Below are positions 1-8,496 of a stretch of DNA of 64,000 bases, one piece after another (positions within the stretch are counted from its first letter, which is position 1; each line of letters begins with the position of its first letter). Below the pieces are notes generated by a model. That model saw nothing but the letters and a program-made list of their open reading frames with translations. It ran no database searches and was not told the origin of the DNA. This stretch comes from Escherichia coli (GTDB lineage Bacteria > Pseudomonadota > Gammaproteobacteria > Enterobacterales > Enterobacteriaceae), in the NCBI RefSeq assembly GCF_024223415.1, contig NZ_CP100500.1. The stretch is one strand, 5' to 3'. Made by a program: the position numbers and the translations under genes.

Positions 1-301
1 TGCATGGCGCAGTACGCCGGAAGAACTGGCTGCACGGATTGCGCGTGGTGACAGCAAGCTGGAAAAATATGAAGACCAGGCAGGCTTCAGCAAAGTTGCG
101 ACCCTGCAAGATATTAAAGATAACGACTACGTGCTGACGCCGGGCCGCTATGTGGGTGCAGCCGAGCAGGAAGAGGACGGCGTGGCATTTGAGACAAAAA
201 TGCGGGAGTTGTCGAAGACGTTGTTTGAGCAGATGAAGCAGGCGGAAGAACTGGATTGTGCGATTCGCCAGAATCTGGAGGCGCTGGGTTATGGGGAGTA
301 A
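1..301 (+). CDS. hsdM: Type I restriction-modification methyltransferase subunit HsdM, C-terminal 99 codons only (5' end lies upstream of window)
   Basis: Open frame from window edge to TAA at 299-301; translation ...IKDNDYVLTPGRYVGAAEQEEDGVAFE... resembles HsdM C-terminal region; immediately followed by an overlapping hsdS start. Confidence 0.75.
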   Translation, partial: AWRSTPEELAARIARGDSKLEKYEDQAGFSKVATLQDIKDNDYVLTPGRYVGAAEQEEDGVAFETKMRELSKTLFEQMKQAEELDCAIRQNLEALGYGE

Positions 302-1604
302 TGCTATTACAACAATAATTGGTGAACACTTGCTGATTAGAAATGGCAAATCTTCGCCATCAAGAGCCATAACAGGAGAATATCCTGTTTATGGTTCAAA
401 TGGAATAATAGGTTATTCAGATGAATATAACGCTAATGAAAATACAATAATTATCGGGCGTGTTGGGTCATATTGTGGTTCAGTTTATATTTCCGATAAA
501 AAATGTTGGGTCACTGATAATGCAATAATTGGAACCGCAAAGAATGAAAATGAAAGTCATTTTTGGTTCTATCTTTTAAAAAAAATAGATTTGAACAATT
601 ATAGTACTGGTTCAGGCCAACCTCTCATTAACCAAACAATAATTAATACAATATCCGTTACCATTCCTAAGCTCAGTGAGAAAAGAGTAGCCATTGGACA
701 TTTTTTACGCCACTTTGATCAAAAGATAAATTTATCTCTTAATATCAATCAATCCTTGGAACAAATGTCCCAAACCTTGTTCAAATCCTGGTTTGTGGAT
801 TTCGATCCGGTGATTGATAACGCGCTGGACGCGGGAAACCCAATCCCGGAAGCGATGCAATCTCGCGCAGAACTGCGTCAAAAAGTACGTAATAGTGCAG
901 ATTTTAAACCGCTTCTAGCGGAAATCCGCTCGCTTTTCCCAAGTGAATTTGAAGAAACCGAACCAGGATGGTTACCTAAGGGCTGGAAACATGGTAATTT
1001 AAATGATGTCACGAAGATCTTAAGTGGGTTTGCTTTTAAGAGTAAAGACTTTGGTGATGAAGGTAAAAGTGTCATAAAAATAAAGAACATTAATATCGAT
1101 AAAACAATTGATATAGATCATACTCAAAAAATTTCTGATATCGTAGCCAAAGACGTAAAGCGTTTTCAATTATTTGATGCCGATATTTTGATGGCTATGA
1201 CTGGTGCCACGGTCGGTAAATTTGGAATATTAGCATCAAAAAATCATGAAGAATATTATCTTAACCAACGAGTTGCGAAGTTTGAAACAGATAAAAAAGC
1301 TTACCTTTATTGTATATTGAATCAAGAAAGTACCGAAAGATTTATAATCAATACAGCTCAGGGCAGTGCACAACCAAATATCAGTGCTAAAGATATTTTA
1401 AGTATTCCACTCACACTACCATCAAACGAAATAATAACTATATTCAATACATTTGTTGATCCTTTATTCTACAGAATGATAGCGAATACAAAAGTTAGTT
1501 TAAGTCTAACAGAACTCCGCGACACCTTGCTCCCAAAACTCATCTCCGGCGAGCTCTCCCTGGAAGATCTTCCGGATCTCAGCACCAATACAGAAGCCGC
1601 ATAA
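291..1604 (+). CDS. hsdS: Type I R-M specificity subunit HsdS (two AT-rich target-recognition domains flanking a conserved central region)
   Basis: ORF track 258..1604; ATG at 291 overlaps the hsdM stop (preferred start, 258 is an alternative). Central conserved segment LFKSWFVDFDPV and C-terminal LPKLISGEL repeat typical of HsdS; TRD-like AT-rich blocks on both sides. Confidence 0.8.
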   Translation: MGSNAITTIIGEHLLIRNGKSSPSRAITGEYPVYGSNGIIGYSDEYNANENTIIIGRVGSYCGSVYISDKKCWVTDNAIIGTAKNENESHFWFYLLKKIDLNNYSTGSGQPLINQTIINTISVTIPKLSEKRVAIGHFLRHFDQKINLSLNINQSLEQMSQTLFKSWFVDFDPVIDNALDAGNPIPEAMQSRAELRQKVRNSADFKPLLAEIRSLFPSEFEETEPGWLPKGWKHGNLNDVTKILSGFAFKSKDFGDEGKSVIKIKNINIDKTIDIDHTQKISDIVAKDVKRFQLFDADILMAMTGATVGKFGILASKNHEEYYLNQRVAKFETDKKAYLYCILNQESTERFIINTAQGSAQPNISAKDILSIPLTLPSNEIITIFNTFVDPLFYRMIANTKVSLSLTELRDTLLPKLISGELSLEDLPDLSTNTEAA

Positions 1605-1612
1605 CGCATTTT

Positions 1613-1637
1613 GCCCCTGTAAAATCAGGGGCTTTCT
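1613..1637 (+). terminator. Stem-loop GCCCCTG-TAAAAT-CAGGGGC followed by TTTCT, immediately after hsdS stop
   Basis: Perfect 7-bp inverted repeat with 6-nt loop and short T-run seen directly in sequence; would separate hsdMS from hsdR transcription. Confidence 0.4.
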
Positions 1638-1698
1638 GGTAAGGTTTTCTACTGATACGGGAATGCTTACCAGAAATTAGCCAGGGTTGGAGCGCGAT

Positions 1699-4600
1699 AT
1701 GAGTCTCTCTTTCAGTGAAGCAAAATTAGAACAAGCGATCATTGAACTGCTGCAGGATCAGGGATATCAACACCTGATCGGCGATAATGTCCCACGTTCA
1801 AGTCTCGATCAGGTCATCATCGAAGACGATCTCCGTCATTATTTAGCGGCACGCTACCAGCCTGATGGCATTACTGAAGAAGAGATTCAACGGCTGATCA
1901 AACAGTTCACCACGCTTCCGGCCTCCGACCTTTATGAAAGCAACAAAACATTTTGTCGCTGGCTGGCAAATGGTTTTCTGTTCAAACGCGACGATCGGCA
2001 ACAAAAAGATCTCTATATTGAATTGCTCGACACCCGGCATCTACCCGCCGCACTGCGCCAGATATTTGACACCGACGATGTCCCGTTGCAACAGGCGGCG
2101 GAACTCCCGCCTTCCTATATTAATCCGCCGCTTAACCGGATTAAGATTGTTAACCAGCTTAAAATCTCCGGTAAAGATAATCAGACTCGTATTCCTGACG
2201 GCATTCTCTATATCAACGGTCTGCCACTGGTCGTCTTTGAATTTAAAAGTGCGGTGCGCGAGCAAGAAGCCAGTATTGGCGATGCCTGGAAGCAGCTCTG
2301 TAAACGCTATCGCCGGGATATTCCGCAACTGTTTATCTACAACGCGCTCTGCGTTATCAGCGATGGCGTAAATAACCGGATGGGCAACCTGTTTGCGCCC
2401 TATGAATACTTTTACTCATGGCGCAAAGTCACCGGTAATGAAAACCGTGAACAGGACGGAATTCCATCATTGCACTCAATGATTCAGGGGCTGTTTCATC
2501 CGGTACGTCTGCTGGACGTGATTAAAAACTTTATCTGCTTCCCGGATAAAGCCAAGCACGAAGTAAAAATTTGCTGCCGATATCCGCAGTACTATGCCGC
2601 CCGCAAACTCTATTACAGCATCAAGCAAGCGCGTAAACCTTTCGGTAGCGGTAAAGGCGGCACCTACTTTGGCGCAACGGGCTGTGGCAAAAGTTACACC
2701 ATGCAATTTTTAACGCGTCTTTTGATGAAGAGCGTGGAGTTTGCCAGCCCGACCATTGTTTTGATCACCGACCGCACCGATCTGGACGATCAGCTTTCTG
2801 CGCAAATGTGCAACGCCAAAAATTACATTGGCGACGACACCATCGTTCCTGTTACCAGCCGTGAAGATTTGCGTAATCAACTGGCGGGACGCAATAGTGG
2901 CGGTGTATTCCTGACAACGATCCATAAATTCACCGAAGACACCGAACTCCTTTCTGAACGCAGCAATATCATTTGCATCTCGGACGAAGCACATCGCAGC
3001 CAGGTTAACCTCGACCAGAAAGTCATCGTCGATAAAGAAAGCGGAAAAGTGCGCAAAACTTATGGCTTTGCGAAATACCTGCACGATTCACTGCCAAACG
3101 CCACCTATGTTGGCTTTACCGGCACACCGATTGACGCGACGCTCGATGTCTTCGGTGAGGTGATCGACAGTTACACCATGACCGAATCCGTTCAGGATGA
3201 AATCACTGTACGCATCGTGTACGAAGGCCGTGCGGCTAAAGTGATCCTGGACTCCAGTAAACTGGAAGAAGTTGAAAAGTATTACGAAGAGTGCGCAAAC
3301 GCAGGCACCAATGAGTGGCAAATCGACGAAAGCAAAAAAGCCACCGCAACCATGAATGCGGTACTGGGTGATGAAGATCGGTTAAAAGCCCTCGCGGAAG
3401 ATTTTGCCAAACATTATGAAAAACGCGTAGACGAAGGTTCCACCGTAAAAGGCAAAGCCATGTTTGTTTGTGCCAGCCGTGAAATTGCCTGGGATTTCTA
3501 CCGTCAGCTTAAAGCTATTCGCCCTGCCTGGTTTGAAGTGAAGCAAGCACCCGATGGCGTCGTCCTGACGGAACAGGAGCAGAAAGAGTTACCGCCTTCA
3601 GAAATGGTGAAGATGGTCATGACGCGCGGTAAAGATGACGACGAGGCGCTTTATGATTTACTGGGCACAAAAGAATATCGTAAAGAGCTGGATAAACAGT
3701 TTAAAAACGCTAAATCGAATTTCAAAATTGCCATTGTTGTTGATATGTGGCTGACCGGTTTCGACGTCCCGGAACTGGATACCATCTATATTGATAAACC
3801 CTTACAAAAACATAATCTTATCCAGACCATTTCTCGCGTTAACCGTAAACTGGAAGGCAAAAGTAAAGGGTTAGTGGTGGACTACATCGGCATTAAAAGT
3901 CAGATGAACCAGGCACTGGCAATGTATTCCCGCATTGATGCCACCAACTTTGAAGATATTCAGCAATCGGTAATAGAAGTTAAAAACCATCTCGATTTGT
4001 TGGGGCAAGTCTTTTACGAATTTGACAGTCGGGATTATTTTAGTGGTGAGCCACAAGCGCAATTATCCTGCCTCAACCGCGCGGCGGAATTTGTTCTGCG
4101 TACCCAGAAAGTTGAACGTCGTTTTATGGGACTGGTTAAACGCATGAAAGCCGCCTACGACGTCTGCTGCGGCAGCGAAGCATTATCACAGACAGAACGT
4201 GACTATATTCACTATTATCTTGCTGTTCGTTCAATTGTTTTCAAACTGACGAAAGGTGACGCACCGGATGTCACCCAGATGAATGCACGCGTTCGTGAAA
4301 TGATTGCAGAAGCGTTAAAAGCTGATGGCGTAGAAGAGATTTATTTTCTTGGCGATAAAAAAGCGGAATCCATCGATATTTTTGACGAAGATTATCTGGC
4401 ACGAATTAACAAGATCAAACTTCCGGCAACGAAGATCCAGTTATTACAAAAATTACTGGAAAAAGCGATCAGCGACTTCAAGAAAGTGAACCAGTTGCAA
4501 GGGATTAACTTCACCCGCCGCTTCCAGGCAATTATAGATCGTTATAATGAGCGGCGAGAAGATGATGTACTCAACGGTGAAGAATTCGATACATTCAGTC

Positions 4601-4962
4601 AGGAAATGACCGATATTATCTATGATATTAAAACCGAAATGGGCACCTGGGCCGATTTAGGCATTGATATTGAAGAAAAAGCGTTTTTCGACATTCTTGC
4701 TCATATGCGCGATAAATATCAGTTCACCTATGACGATGAAAAAATGCTGTCACTGGCAAAAGAGATGAAAAGCGTGGTTGACAACACATCGAAATATCCT
4801 GACTGGAGTAAACGTGATGATATTAAAGCGAAACTGAAAGTTGAACTTATTCTGCTTCTACACAAGCATAAGTTCCCGCCAGTAGCGAATGATGATGTTT
4901 ATATGGGTGTGCTGGCACAGGCAGAGAATTTTAAAGAACACCATATGAGTGCTTTAAATTAA
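1699..4962 (+). CDS. hsdR: Type I restriction enzyme R subunit HsdR (PD-(D/E)xK nuclease plus SF2 helicase motor)
   Basis: ORF track 1687..4962 (TTG); ATG at 1699 with GGAG 7 nt upstream preferred. Motifs: nuclease LPLVVFEFK, helicase motif I GATGCGKS, motif II ISDEAHRSQ, motif III FTGTPID. About 1087 aa. Confidence 0.85.
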   Translation: MSLSFSEAKLEQAIIELLQDQGYQHLIGDNVPRSSLDQVIIEDDLRHYLAARYQPDGITEEEIQRLIKQFTTLPASDLYESNKTFCRWLANGFLFKRDDRQQKDLYIELLDTRHLPAALRQIFDTDDVPLQQAAELPPSYINPPLNRIKIVNQLKISGKDNQTRIPDGILYINGLPLVVFEFKSAVREQEASIGDAWKQLCKRYRRDIPQLFIYNALCVISDGVNNRMGNLFAPYEYFYSWRKVTGNENREQDGIPSLHSMIQGLFHPVRLLDVIKNFICFPDKAKHEVKICCRYPQYYAARKLYYSIKQARKPFGSGKGGTYFGATGCGKSYTMQFLTRLLMKSVEFASPTIVLITDRTDLDDQLSAQMCNAKNYIGDDTIVPVTSREDLRNQLAGRNSGGVFLTTIHKFTEDTELLSERSNIICISDEAHRSQVNLDQKVIVDKESGKVRKTYGFAKYLHDSLPNATYVGFTGTPIDATLDVFGEVIDSYTMTESVQDEITVRIVYEGRAAKVILDSSKLEEVEKYYEECANAGTNEWQIDESKKATATMNAVLGDEDRLKALAEDFAKHYEKRVDEGSTVKGKAMFVCASREIAWDFYRQLKAIRPAWFEVKQAPDGVVLTEQEQKELPPSEMVKMVMTRGKDDDEALYDLLGTKEYRKELDKQFKNAKSNFKIAIVVDMWLTGFDVPELDTIYIDKPLQKHNLIQTISRVNRKLEGKSKGLVVDYIGIKSQMNQALAMYSRIDATNFEDIQQSVIEVKNHLDLLGQVFYEFDSRDYFSGEPQAQLSCLNRAAEFVLRTQKVERRFMGLVKRMKAAYDVCCGSEALSQTERDYIHYYLAVRSIVFKLTKGDAPDVTQMNARVREMIAEALKADGVEEIYFLGDKKAESIDIFDEDYLARINKIKLPATKIQLLQKLLEKAISDFKKVNQLQGINFTRRFQAIIDRYNERREDDVLNGEEFDTFSQEMTDIIYDIKTEMGTWADLGIDIEEKAFFDILAHMRDKYQFTYDDEKMLSLAKEMKSVVDNTSKYPDWSKRDDIKAKLKVELILLLHKHKFPPVANDDVYMGVLAQAENFKEHHMSALN

Positions 4963-4969
4963 TTATGAA

Positions 4970-4995
4970 GGCCGGATACACTTTGTTATCCGGCC
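4970..4995 (+). terminator. Perfect palindrome GGCCGGATA-CACTTTGT-TATCCGGCC downstream of hsdR (terminator or REP-like hairpin)
   Basis: 9-bp inverted repeat with 8-nt loop seen in sequence 8 nt after hsdR stop; no strong T-run, so function uncertain. Confidence 0.35.
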
Positions 4996-5083
4996 ATTCT
5001 GAATTAACGTTAATTTCTCTTCCAGATCTTTCCAGTAACGCTTTTATTATTTTCTATTTTTAGCTGGACTATCCCTGTATTTA

Positions 5084-5099
5084 CTGATGATATATCCAG
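5084..5099 (+). promoter_or_regulatory. Putative LexA (SOS) box CTGATGATATATCCAG upstream of symE
   Basis: Matches CTG-N10-CAG architecture with AT-rich centre; symE is a known SOS-induced gene in K-12. Confidence 0.4.
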
Positions 5100-5103
5100 G
5101 TAT

Positions 5104-5181
5104 TTAGCGCGGTGCGGATGTGCGCCAACACACCCGCACCGCTCATCACAATCACTATTTTCAAGGAATAGCAGTTATGAC
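5104..5181 (-). ncRNA. symR: SymR antisense sRNA (antitoxin of type I TA pair symER); coordinates approximate
   Basis: By position only: region antisense to symE 5' UTR and start codon, includes inverted repeat GCGGTGCGG...CCGCACCGC (5108-5142). Ends not determinable from sequence. Confidence 0.35.
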
Positions 5182-5515
5182 TGACACGCATTCTATTGCA
5201 CAACCGTTCGAAGCAGAAGTCTCCCCGGCAAATAACCGCCAATTAACCGTGAGTTATGCGAGTCGCTACCCGGATTACAGCCGTATTCCCGCCATCACTC
5301 TGAAAGGTCAGTGGCTGGAAGCCGCCGGTTTTGCTACCGGCACGGCGGTAGATGTCAAAGTGATGGACGGCTGTATTGTCCTCACCGCCCAACCACCCGC
5401 CGCCGAAGAGAGCGAACTGATGCAGTCGCTACGCCAGGTGTGCAAACTGTCGGCACGTAAACAAAAGCAGGTGCAGGAGTTTATTGGGGTGATTAGTAGC
5501 AAAACGCCACGCTAA
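5177..5515 (+). CDS. symE: SymE, SOS-induced toxin-like protein (type I toxin-antitoxin)
   Basis: ORF track 5120..5515; internal ATG at 5177 preceded by AGGAA gives the 112-aa product [15 protein letters not shown]... matching my recollection of K-12 SymE. Confidence 0.85.
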
Positions 5516-5523
5516 GTTTCTCT

Positions 5524-5546
5524 CCCCTTCCCCATACGTGAAGGGG
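5524..5546. terminator. Hairpin CCCCTTC-(9 nt)-GAAGGGG between convergent symE and yjiS
   Basis: 7-bp inverted repeat seen in sequence between two convergent stop codons; no clear U-run on either strand. Confidence 0.3.
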
Positions 5547-5557
5547 AATTGCCCCCA

Positions 5558-5722
5558 TCACTCCACATCCTCCTTGCGTAACCCAATATCCCTCAACCGT
5601 TCATCACTCATTTGCTGTAACACTCGTCGGGTCTGCATTTGTCGCCGCCAACGCCTCACCGCCTGCCAGAGTTGCACAAGTCTGATAAACGGCGTTTTGG
5701 CTTTGTTTTCGTGAAATTCCAT
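5558..5722 (-). CDS. yjiS: Small DUF1127-family protein YjiS (54 aa)
   Basis: Hand-translated minus-strand ORF MEFHENKAKTPFIRLVQLWQAVRRWRRQMQTRRVLQQMSDERLRDIGLRKEDVE; below the ORF-track length cutoff; matches recalled K-12 YjiS. Confidence 0.75.
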   Translation of the reverse strand: MEFHENKAKTPFIRLVQLWQAVRRWRRQMQTRRVLQQMSDERLRDIGLRKEDVE

Positions 5723-7311: not shown

Positions 7312-7427
7312 ATTCGAATTAGTGGCGAAGCACCTGATTTATTCTCACGAATCGCCTGTGACTCGTTTTATCTTTGCAGGATCATAGCCACGTTCCGGCA
7401 TGGCTTAGTAAAGTGCGCTTCGTTCAT

Positions 7428-7526
7428 GCCGGATGCGGCGTGAACGCCTTATCCGGCTTACAAATCGCGCAAATTCAATAGATTGCAGAGGTAATGTAGG
7501 TCTGATAAGCGTAGCACATCAGGCAG
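7428..7526. repeat. BIME: two REP elements (GCCGGATGCGGCGTGAACGCCTTATCCGGC... and TGTAGGTCTGATAAGCGTAGCACATCAGGCA)
   Basis: Canonical enterobacterial REP consensus recognisable by eye between convergent yjiR and rpnD. Confidence 0.6.
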
Positions 7527-7551: not shown

Positions 7552-8496
7552 TTAGTACTCGATCCATGGATCGCGCTTGCTTTCAGGCAAGGGTTGCTCT
7601 AATGCCTGCATTTGCTCTGCCGAAAGTCCAGTATATCGTTGTATCCATTCAGGATCCGCACCGTTCTGCAAAAGCAATCTAAGGAGGCGTTGTTCCCCTT
7701 CTTCTTTCCCCTTTTCCATCCCTAACAGCCATCCATCATTATGAATTCGCTCTGCAATCGTCATTATTCGCTCCCTGTGTTGTGGCATTCGACTGGTTAG
7801 TTCGCTGATAAACTCTTTAAAACTCGCTTCATCGCCAGCCAGTAAAATGTAATTTAACAGCGCGGTTATCTGGCTGTCATTAGCGCACCCTGTAACCAGT
7901 AATACTGCCAGTTGATCAATAAGCCCCATTAGATCGCGCTGGCGAATATGCTTTTGGATCAACTCCAACAGGGCGACTCTGCGGTGCTGCACAATCTCGT
8001 CGTCTGGCACGACAGTGATATCCACCAGCGGGAACGCGGCATTATAAAGTTTCCGTGCGGTAGTCGGGTCGGCAAATTCGTCCAGCCAGCACAGGGACCA
8101 GGGGTAAGGACTACGGCTACCGTGATAAAACAGCATCGGGATGACCAGCGGTAGCTGCCGGCGTTTATCATGCTCGATATGGCGCTGCATCACCGCCATG
8201 GAATAGCGCATCAGGCGAAAGGCCATATGAATATCCTCACGGCTCTGATGTTCAATCACCACATAAATATAGCCATCGCCTTCGCGGGTCTTTACCGACC
8301 ACAGAATATCGGAATGTAGCGCCCGCAATTTTTCATCGACAAAGCTGGCGGATTCCAGTTTTAAGCTGTCGAGATCGCACAGTTCCCGTAAATCTTTAGG
8401 TAAGTGGATCTCCATAAAATCCCGCGCGGTGTCAGGGTGCATGAGAAAGGATTTAAATAATGCGTCATGCGGCGTGCTGGTCGTGAAGTTTGTCAT
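7552..8496 (-). CDS. rpnD: Rpn-family recombination-promoting nuclease (YhgA-like), intact 314 aa
   Basis: 314-aa ORF with YhgA-like N-terminal nuclease region ([23 protein letters not shown]); position corresponds to K-12 yjiP/yjiQ. Confidence 0.8.

What the first reader, a model, noticed from the sequence alone, without database searches (positions are those of the whole stretch)
1..4995. Type I R-M system with hsdM-hsdS-hsdR gene order in the immigration-control region
The classical chromosomal EcoKI-type arrangement I recall is hsdR-hsdM-hsdS. Here hsdR follows hsdS, separated by a hairpin terminator-like structure and a second 8-bp inverted repeat (CTGGTAAG...CTTACCAG, 1636-1674). This suggests hsdR has its own promoter, as in plasmid-type (type IC-like) families. 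The HsdS TRDs are AT-rich and differ from the K-12 HsdS I recall, predicting a different recognition sequence. There is no mcrBC between the hsd genes and symE.
Basis: partly seen in the sequence, partly recalled or inferred. Interest (0 to 1): 0.45.

Follow-up and report, generated by a model that had tools for sequence, protein, structure and literature searches.

The report
Ordinary type ID restriction-modification locus
This is a complete, apparently functional copy of a well-known E. coli DNA restriction system (the "type ID" family), whose methylase-specificity-nuclease gene order is normal for that family, so the layout is ordinary, not new.

Summary
The window holds the hsdM 3' end (1-301), hsdS (291-1604) and hsdR (1699-4962). 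The 94-nt hsdS-hsdR spacer carries two perfect inverted repeats. The TRDs are AT-rich, and symE follows with no mcrBC.

The interpretation of organisational novelty fails. HsdM and HsdR are 94% and 91% identical to a Klebsiella locus. That locus's HsdS is identical to UniProt O34140_KLEPN, which I infer is KpnAI, a type ID prototype. They are only 24-27% identical to type IA (K-12) and IB (CFT073) proteins, and only remotely related to type IC (EcoR124).

A near-full-length copy of this hsdR is found in 862 of 5,426 complete E. coli genomes. A 2025 review lists type ID in 12% of enterobacterial immigration-control regions. Every relative in which hsdM and hsdS were detected within 5 kb, across dozens of genera, has the order M-S-R. 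No second hsdR lies upstream, and the HsdR catalytic motifs are intact.

An hsdR-specific promoter is not supported: no sigma-70-like site lies in the spacer. The first hairpin looks like an intrinsic terminator. The second (11/11 nt) is conserved with compensatory changes in enteric relatives. I infer attenuated read-through.

The exact hsdS allele occurs in 8 genomes, and its recognition sequence could not be predicted.

The parts
1..301 (+). 3' end (last 100 codons) of hsdM, the N6-adenine methyltransferase subunit. The full gene is 539 aa and starts upstream of the window.
   Evidence: Identical to L001:9001-9301. The full gene L001:7682-9301 is annotated as subunit M. It has NPPF at residue 288. 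It is 93.7% identical to the HsdM of the locus inferred to be KpnAI.
291..1604 (+). hsdS, the specificity subunit, 437 aa. Its start overlaps the hsdM stop by 11 nt, which suggests translational coupling.
   Evidence: The same 11-nt overlap is present in the relatives checked.
300..740 (+). TRD1 of HsdS (about aa 4-150), 29-35% GC.
   Evidence: Variable block in alignment A3; GC profile. This TRD is shared with Yokenella L005 and, at 95.8% nucleotide identity, with many other E. coli that carry a different TRD2.
741..986 (+). Central conserved region of HsdS (aa 151-232).
   Evidence: Nearly invariant across 10 type ID HsdS sequences, including the inferred KpnAI HsdS.
987..1505 (+). TRD2 of HsdS (about aa 233-405), 30-33% GC. 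This is the rare half of the allele.
   Evidence: Only 8 genomes carry both TRDs.
1506..1604 (+). C-terminal conserved region of HsdS (LTELRDTLLPKLISGELSLEDLP...).
   Evidence: Invariant block in A3.
1613..1637 (+). Hairpin 1: a 7-bp stem with 6 G-C pairs and a 6-nt loop, followed by TTTCT. It looks like an intrinsic terminator and sits 9 nt after the hsdS stop codon.
   Evidence: Conserved in 13 enteric relatives.
1633..1676 (+). Hairpin 2: an 11-bp perfect outer stem (TTTCTGGTAAG/CTTACCAGAAA) plus a 5-bp inner stem. Its 5' arm includes the T-run that follows hairpin 1.
   Evidence: Photorhabdus and Xenorhabdus show compensatory changes.
1688..1691 (+). GGAG, the likely ribosome-binding site of hsdR.
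   Evidence: Read directly from the sequence. The block GGAGCG-N-GAT-ATG is conserved in the enteric clade.
1699..4962 (+). hsdR, the restriction (nuclease and translocase) subunit, 1087 aa, intact.
   Evidence: TIGR00348 at 469.7 bits. Nuclease motif D167 with E181-x-K183 (nt 2191-2247). Walker A GATGCGKS 325-332 (nt 2671-2694). DEAH 429-432 (nt 2983-2994). All are invariant in 21 homologues. 91.2% identical to the HsdR of the locus inferred to be KpnAI.

Best explanation
This is a complete type ID (StySBLI / KpnAI / EcoR9I family) type I restriction-modification system. It sits at its usual chromosomal site, the E. coli immigration-control region between yjiA and yjiS.

hsdM and hsdS overlap by 11 nt and are probably translated as a coupled pair. 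Together they give the M2S methyltransferase, which marks a bipartite target set by the two TRDs. hsdR lies downstream, as in all members of this family examined. It encodes an intact PD-(D/E)xK nuclease plus DEAH translocase, which joins M2S to cut unmethylated DNA.

Inferred, not shown: the 94-nt hsdS-hsdR spacer has no recognisable promoter. It begins with a terminator-like hairpin followed by a second conserved hairpin. On that basis hsdR is most likely transcribed by partial read-through from the hsdM promoter. That would keep HsdR scarcer than HsdM and HsdS, a safe arrangement for a system that must methylate before it cuts.

My confidence in the identity is about 0.93. My confidence in the read-through mechanism is about 0.4.
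For: Identity:
- HsdM is 93.7% and HsdR 91.2% identical to those of the K. grimontii locus L014. That locus's HsdS is identical to UniProt O34140_KLEPN 'HsdS'. I infer this 1997-era Klebsiella pneumoniae entry to be KpnAI, which reviews list as type ID.
- The HsdS conserved regions are nearly identical to those of that HsdS and of the S. Enteritidis HsdS.
- Identity to type IA and IB proteins is only 24-27%. EcoR124 is remote.
- The review PMC12707154 lists type IA, IB and ID, but not IC, at the immigration-control region, with ID at 12%.
- A near-full-length copy of this hsdR is in 862 of 5,426 E. coli genomes.
- Upstream lie brnTA, an Mrr-like gene and hsdM. There is no second hsdR.
- The order M-S-R holds in all relatives where M and S are seen. 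Gene order is cited as a family trait (PMC519025; PMC10030836).
- The catalytic motifs are intact and invariant.

Mechanism:
- No promoter-like site was found.
- Hairpin 1 was flagged as terminator-like.
- The spacer structure has z = -3.87.
- 87% of cells are paired, 6 pairs change on both sides, and 0 of 500 shuffles reach the observed covariation score.
- In distant relatives hsdS and hsdR are 2-24 nt apart, so co-transcription occurs in this family.
Against: - Family membership rests on sequence identity, not on the defining complementation test.
- That O34140 is KpnAI is my inference from the age of the accession and the organism.
- No methylome or restriction data were available.
- For the mechanism, classical type I systems usually have a separate hsdR promoter (PMC3510504), and such promoters are weak and can escape consensus scans.
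- The Proteus / X. hominickii subclade has a canonical terminator followed by a plausible promoter, TTGTTA-15/16-TATCTT (Proteus) or TATTTT (X. hominickii). A separate hsdR promoter therefore may exist elsewhere in the family.
- The covariation evidence comes from only 13 related sequences.
- The role of hairpin 2 is unexplained. It has no downstream T-run, so it is not a terminator.
Confidence: 0.85

Rival explanations
1. hsdR has its own promoter in or near the hsdS-hsdR spacer. hsdMS transcripts end at hairpin 1 and hsdR is transcribed independently, as in EcoKI and EcoR124I.
For: A terminator-like hairpin sits directly after hsdS. [quoted passage not shown] Proteus-type relatives have a plausible promoter after their terminator.
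Against: No site scoring 8/12 or better against the sigma-70 consensus lies within 260 nt upstream of the hsdR ATG in E. coli, Citrobacter, Enterobacter L013 or Pragia. The 9/12 scan also found none in the spacer. The 66 nt between hairpin 1 and the ATG are taken up by hairpin 2 and a GC-rich block containing the ribosome-binding site. No conserved AT-rich -10 element appears in the alignment.
Confidence: 0.3
2. The system is a type IC-like (plasmid-family) cassette that has moved into the chromosome.
For: It has the same M-S-R gene order as EcoR124I. Among solved structures, the only HsdR hits are EcoR124 proteins.
Against: The similarity is remote: HsdR E 1e-24 over about 370 residues, and HsdM E 1.5e-38, against 2.4e-133 for the closest solved HsdM, entry 3khk. 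The system is 91-94% identical to the locus inferred to be KpnAI, type ID. Type IC was not found at the immigration-control region in 9,040 genomes (PMC12707154). The hsdR copies are chromosomal in 1,149 of 1,150 places.
Confidence: 0.03
3. The locus is a decayed or restriction-deficient system that only methylates, with a non-functional HsdR.
For: Some relatives do carry damaged hsdR. In S. Enteritidis the HsdR lacks about 70-78 aa just after the DEAH motif. Some E. coli genomes hold only fragments (H40-H42).
Against: Here hsdR is a full-length 1087-aa ORF. All nuclease and helicase motifs that are invariant in 21 homologues are present. It is 98-100% identical to the copy in hundreds of genomes.
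Confidence: 0.05

Closest known systems
KpnAI (Klebsiella M5a1), type ID
   Same: Gene order hsdM-hsdS-hsdR. HsdM 539 aa in both (93.7% identical). HsdR 1086 against 1087 aa (91.2% identical). Near-identical HsdS conserved regions. The hsdS-hsdR spacer is 95 against 94 nt and holds the same two hairpins.
   Different: Both TRDs differ (HsdS is 38% identical overall), so the recognition sequence is not GAA(N6)TGCC. The host and flanking genes also differ.
StySBLI / StySENI (Salmonella), type ID prototype
   Same: The S. Enteritidis locus L004 has the same order, the same 11-nt hsdM/hsdS overlap and the same 94-nt spacer with both hairpins. It sits next to yjiS, an rpn gene, mdtM and yjiN. HsdM is 93.5% identical. 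StySENI and StySBLI both recognise CGA(N6)TACC.
   Different: The TRDs differ. That L004 is StySENI is my inference. The L004 hsdR carries an internal deletion. symE is replaced by a DUF5655 gene.
EcoKI (type IA, E. coli K-12)
   Same: The same chromosomal site, between yjiA and yjiS and next to symE. The same three-subunit logic, with hsdM-hsdS coupling.
   Different: The order is hsdR-hsdM-hsdS, with a documented promoter before each unit. HsdM is 24% identical and HsdR about 25% over 219 aa. K-12 also has mrr, mcrBC, yjiT and yjiV.
EcoR124I (type IC, plasmid)
   Same: hsdM-hsdS-hsdR order. It is the closest HsdR with a solved structure.
   Different: It is plasmid-borne. Sequence similarity is only remote. 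It has its own hsdR promoter, which I state from general knowledge and did not test here.

Membership tests
Type I R-M system (general) | Three genes: HsdR (nuclease plus SF2 ATPase), HsdM (N6-adenine methyltransferase) and HsdS (two TRDs plus two conserved regions) | tested here: met
   HsdR matches TIGR00348 at 469.7 bits, above the 284.55 cutoff. D...ExK, Walker A and DEAH are present. HsdM has NPPF, and the homologues carry HsdM_N and N6_Mtase domains. HsdM scores 172 bits on TIGR00497, below its 242.75 cutoff. HsdS has the layout TRD1-CR1-TRD2-CR2.
Type ID | High HsdM and HsdR sequence identity to a proven member (StySBLI, KpnAI or EcoR9I) | tested here: met
   93.7% and 91.2% identity to locus L014, whose HsdS equals O34140_KLEPN. 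Equating that entry with KpnAI is an inference.
Type ID | HsdS conserved regions of the family type, which are the basis of subunit exchange | tested here: met
   CR1 and CR2 are nearly invariant across the window, the inferred KpnAI HsdS, the S. Enteritidis HsdS and seven others.
Type ID | Genetic complementation or subunit exchange with a family member. This is the formal definition. | not testable with these tools
   It needs merodiploid complementation with StySBLI or KpnAI subunits.
Type ID | 6 bp between the two methylated adenines of the target | not testable with these tools
   It needs a SMRT or nanopore methylome. The criterion is taken from Table 1 of PMC12707154.
Type ID | Chromosomal allele at the immigration-control region, with gene order hsdM-hsdS-hsdR | tested here: met
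   The neighbourhood is yjiA-brnAT-mrr-like-hsdM-hsdS-hsdR-symE-yjiS. The order is conserved in all relatives examined.
Type IA (EcoKI) | Close HsdM and HsdR similarity to EcoKI; order hsdR-hsdM-hsdS | tested here: not met
   HsdM is 24.5% identical and HsdR 24.7% over 219 aa. The order differs.
Type IB (EcoAI) | Close similarity to EcoAI-type HsdM and HsdR (CFT073 EcoCFTI recognises the same GAG(N7)GTCA sequence as EcoAI); order R-M-S | tested here: not met
   HsdM is 26.5% identical. HsdR has no significant alignment (best E 0.002 over 42 aa).
Type IC (EcoR124I) | Close similarity to EcoR124 HsdM and HsdR; plasmid-borne | tested here: not met
   The matches are only remote (HsdR E 1e-24; HsdM E 1.5e-38). 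The locus is chromosomal. Only the gene order is shared.
Type IE (KpnBI) | Similarity to the KpnBI subunits | not tested
   No KpnBI sequence was available. The review reports only types IA, IB and ID at this locus.

The most novel reading that the evidence does not exclude
The two tandem stem-loops in the hsdS-hsdR spacer may be a dedicated cis-regulatory RNA element. They are conserved with compensatory base changes from E. coli to Photorhabdus and Xenorhabdus, and they match no Rfam family. The element could be an attenuator, an RNase processing site or a stability element. It would set the HsdR:HsdM/S ratio in enteric type ID systems, a control layer not described for type I R-M.
Probability: 0.3. 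Interest if true: 0.35.

Novelty: already known. Interest (0 to 1): 0.12.

Why it matters
It matters little beyond correct annotation. The locus should be labelled a type ID hsdMSR system with a rare TRD combination, so the strain will methylate and restrict a target different from EcoKI's. That is relevant for transforming such strains and for reading their methylomes. The only open point of some interest is how hsdR is expressed behind a conserved terminator-like double hairpin that has no visible promoter.

Tried and rejected
- I looked for the primary type ID literature to read the published gene order and promoters: Titheradge 2001 (PMC60208), Murray 2000 (PMC98998), Sibley & Raleigh 2004 (PMC373321) and the KpnBI paper (PMC524312). 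None is held.
- The source names of HsdR homologues gave no enzyme names. The exact-sequence cluster look-up did give O34140_KLEPN.
- A covariance model of the spacer (R1) was searched over 61 sources (793 kb). It found only the 13 sequences it was built from, plus reverse-strand echoes. The element is therefore confined to the enteric clade and is not a dispersed repeat.
- Rfam has no family in the spacer.
- I tried to predict the recognition sequence from TRD similarity to solved or characterised HsdS proteins. Only weak matches came back (7eew E 1e-18 for TRD1; 7vru E 3e-7 for TRD2; no TRD shared with the inferred KpnAI, StySENI or EcoKI). No prediction was made.
- I considered the loop of hairpin 1 (TAAAAT) as a -10 element. 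I rejected it because there is no -35 or extended -10, and the loop is not conserved in relatives.
- I considered hairpin 2 as a bidirectional terminator. I rejected it because the T-run is 5' and the A-run 3' on both strands.
Full report
**What is there**

The first 5 kb of the window hold four features:
- the last 100 codons of hsdM (1-301)
- hsdS (291-1604, 437 aa), whose start overlaps the hsdM stop by 11 nt
- a 94-nt spacer (1605-1698)
- hsdR (1699-4962, 1087 aa)

HsdR matches NCBIfam TIGR00348 well above its cutoff, at 469.7 against 284.55 bits. It carries the nuclease motif D167 with E181-x-K183, Walker A GATGCGKS (325-332) and DEAH (429-432). All of these are invariant in an alignment of 21 homologues.

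The spacer contains two perfect inverted repeats. The first is GCCCCTG/CAGGGGC at 1613-1619/1626-1632, followed by TTTCT. The consensus scan flags it as terminator-like. The second is TTTCTGGTAAG/CTTACCAGAAA at 1633-1643/1666-1676. The spacer folds at -37.6 kcal/mol with z = -3.87.

The two TRD-coding stretches of hsdS are 29-35% GC. The conserved hsdS regions and hsdR are 43-50% GC. symE (5177-5515), with its antisense symR (5106-5182, Rfam 91.7 bits), follows hsdR. yjiS follows symE, so mcrBC is absent.

**Genomic context**

The sequence is the E. coli chromosome. Positions 1-5600 match six complete genomes at a reported 100.0% (one nucleotide in hsdS differs) and two more at 99.9%.

In strain Ec-RL2-1X the neighbourhood is yjiA, brnA, brnT, a 388-aa Mrr-like restriction endonuclease, hsdM (539 aa), hsdS, hsdR, symE, yjiS. 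There is no second hsdR upstream.

In K-12 the same site reads yjiA, mrr, hsdR, hsdM, hsdS, symE, mcrB, mcrC, yjiV, yjiT, yjiS. However, mcrBC in K-12 lies beyond symE, not between hsd and symE.

**Which family**

The window's HsdM and HsdR are only about 24-25% identical to the type IA proteins of K-12. HsdM is 26.5% identical to the type IB HsdM of CFT073, and HsdR has no significant alignment to the CFT073 HsdR. That CFT073 is type IB rests on two results. Its HsdR is annotated EcoAI/FtnUII family. EcoCFTI recognises GAG(N7)GTCA, the same sequence as EcoAI.

Against solved structures, HsdR hits only EcoR124 HsdR, at E 1e-24. HsdM hits EcoR124II M at 1.5e-38 and EcoKI M at 4e-18, but the closest solved HsdM (entry 3khk) at 2.4e-133. 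The system is therefore not type IC either.

The positive evidence comes from the Klebsiella grimontii locus L014. Its HsdS (439 aa) is identical in sequence to UniProt O34140_KLEPN 'HsdS'. From the age of that accession and the organism, I infer it to be the KpnAI HsdS of Lee et al. 1997. Reviews list KpnAI as a type ID member.

The window's HsdM and HsdR are 93.7% and 91.2% identical to those of L014. The two conserved regions of HsdS are nearly identical.

The S. Enteritidis locus L004 gives parallel support, with HsdM 93.5% identical. StySENI, which I recall comes from S. Enteritidis, recognises CGA(N6)TACC, the same as StySBLI.

A 2025 review reports that the immigration-control region hosts types IA (14%), IB (11%) and ID (12%), and never IC. 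I conclude that this is a type ID system. The formal tests, complementation and the 6-bp adenine spacing, could not be run.

**Is the gene order unusual?**

It is not. I examined two sets of relatives:
- Ten loci were reached through the protein collection: Salmonella, Yokenella, Photorhabdus, Vibrio, Proteus, Enterobacter, Xenorhabdus and three metagenomic contigs.
- Eighty loci came from a scan of one genome per species. In that scan, 387 stretches in the genome collection (one genome per species) encode a relative. The 80 best are 61-100% identical and reach into Bacteroidota.

Every case in which hsdM and hsdS are visible within 5 kb shows them upstream of hsdR, on the same strand, in the order M-S-R. 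Sometimes one or two extra genes lie between S and R.

A near-full-length copy of this hsdR occurs in 862 of 5,426 complete E. coli genomes, or 16%. Published work treats gene order as one of the traits that distinguish type I families. It also describes hsdMSR operons as common and as grouping with type ID.

**Does hsdR have its own promoter?**

The sequence does not support this for the E. coli clade.

- The tool scan (9 of 12 matches) finds no site in the spacer.
- A laxer scan (8 of 12 matches) finds none within 260 nt upstream of the hsdR ATG in E. coli, Citrobacter, Enterobacter L013 or Pragia.
- The 66 nt between hairpin 1 and the ATG are occupied by hairpin 2 and a conserved GC-rich block that ends in GGAG-N7-ATG.

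Both hairpins are conserved in 13 enteric sequences. In these, 87% of cells are paired and six pairs change on both sides. None of 500 column shuffles reaches the observed covariation score. In Photorhabdus the outer stem of hairpin 2 has a different sequence but stays complementary.

The family varies elsewhere:
- Proteus and X. hominickii have a single canonical terminator followed by a plausible promoter.
- Several marine members have hsdS and hsdR only 2-24 nt apart, so those must be co-transcribed.

My best inference is that in E. coli hsdR is expressed by partial read-through of hairpin 1, and that this keeps HsdR sub-stoichiometric. I hold this at about 0.4. A weak, unrecognised hsdR promoter remains a live rival at about 0.3.

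The role of hairpin 2 is unexplained. It has no T-run after it on either strand, matches no Rfam family, and is not repeated elsewhere in the loci searched.

**The hsdS allele**

HsdS has the usual layout: TRD1 (aa 4-150), CR1 (151-232), TRD2 (233-405) and CR2 (406-437).

TRD1 plus CR1 is shared, at 95.8% nucleotide identity, with many other E. coli genomes that carry a different TRD2, for example APEC IMT5155. The combination of both TRDs occurs in only 8 of 5,426 genomes, and the window differs from all of them by one nucleotide. Among the relatives, TRDs recur in different pairings. This is the classic TRD reassortment.

Neither TRD matches the inferred KpnAI HsdS, the S. Enteritidis HsdS, EcoKI or the CFT073 HsdS. 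The specificity is therefore different from all of those, but I could not predict it.

**Verdict**

The features are real. The system is an ordinary, apparently intact member of a family described in the 1990s. It sits at its usual locus and has that family's normal gene order.

The 'type IC-like' label and the implied organisational novelty are not supported, and the separate-promoter idea finds no sequence support. The one modestly interesting leftover is the conserved double hairpin between hsdS and hsdR.

Noticed in passing
window 5106-5182 (-) and 5177-5515 (+): The symR antisense RNA (Rfam RF01809, 91.7 bits) overlaps the 5' end of symE directly downstream of hsdR. It occupies the same position relative to the hsd genes as in K-12 and CFT073, although the hsd family differs.
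   Followed up: partly
L001:6452-7618 (just upstream of the window); also L005:695-1864, L090:1-814, L092:1-793: A 388-aa Mrr-like restriction endonuclease (Mrr_cat plus NA-iREase1 domains; no NCBIfam hit) sits directly upstream of hsdM. It recurs there in Yokenella (86% identical), in a metagenomic contig, and in a shorter Mrr_N form in Xenorhabdus. This suggests a linked type IV / type ID cassette. A BrnT/BrnA toxin-antitoxin pair lies next to it in E. coli.
   Followed up: partly
L004:7001-10030: The S. Enteritidis hsdR of this family is 1009 aa. It lacks about 70-78 residues directly after the DEAH motif (window residues about 440-508) and is listed in 42 blocks of the collection (24 contigs read). 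It may be a widespread restriction-deficient allele.
   Followed up: no
L007:3180-4868, L093:2498-3844, and many loci with 0.8-3.6 kb gaps: In Vibrio, Tolumonas, Alteromonas and other marine relatives, extra genes are inserted between hsdS and hsdR. Examples are a 562-aa SWIM-domain protein and an ATPase_2/DUF234 protein. In V. splendidus a McrBC pair follows hsdR.
   Followed up: no
window 291-987 against 987-1505: TRD1 plus the central conserved region is shared at 95.8% nucleotide identity with many E. coli genomes that have another TRD2. The full allele is in only 8 genomes, and the window differs from all 8 by one nucleotide. This is a textbook case of TRD reassortment.
   Followed up: partly
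window 7552-8496 (-): An intact 314-aa Rpn-family (rpnD-like) recombination-promoting nuclease gene. The K-12 counterpart, rpnD, is annotated as a pseudogene.
   Followed up: no
window 7422-7503: Two adjacent sub-threshold Rfam hits lie between yjiR and the rpn gene: naRNA4 at 36 bits and ES036 at 33 bits. They are probably REP-type repeats.
   Followed up: no
L057-L089: HsdR of this family is still 61-63% identical in Bacteroidota, Calditrichota and Cloacimonadota genomes. That is unusually high conservation across phyla and is consistent with wide horizontal spread.
   Followed up: no
L001:7682-9301: The full-length HsdM scores 172 bits on NCBIfam TIGR00497 (hsdM equivalog), below the curated cutoff of 242.75. 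That model therefore does not name type ID HsdM proteins.
   Followed up: no
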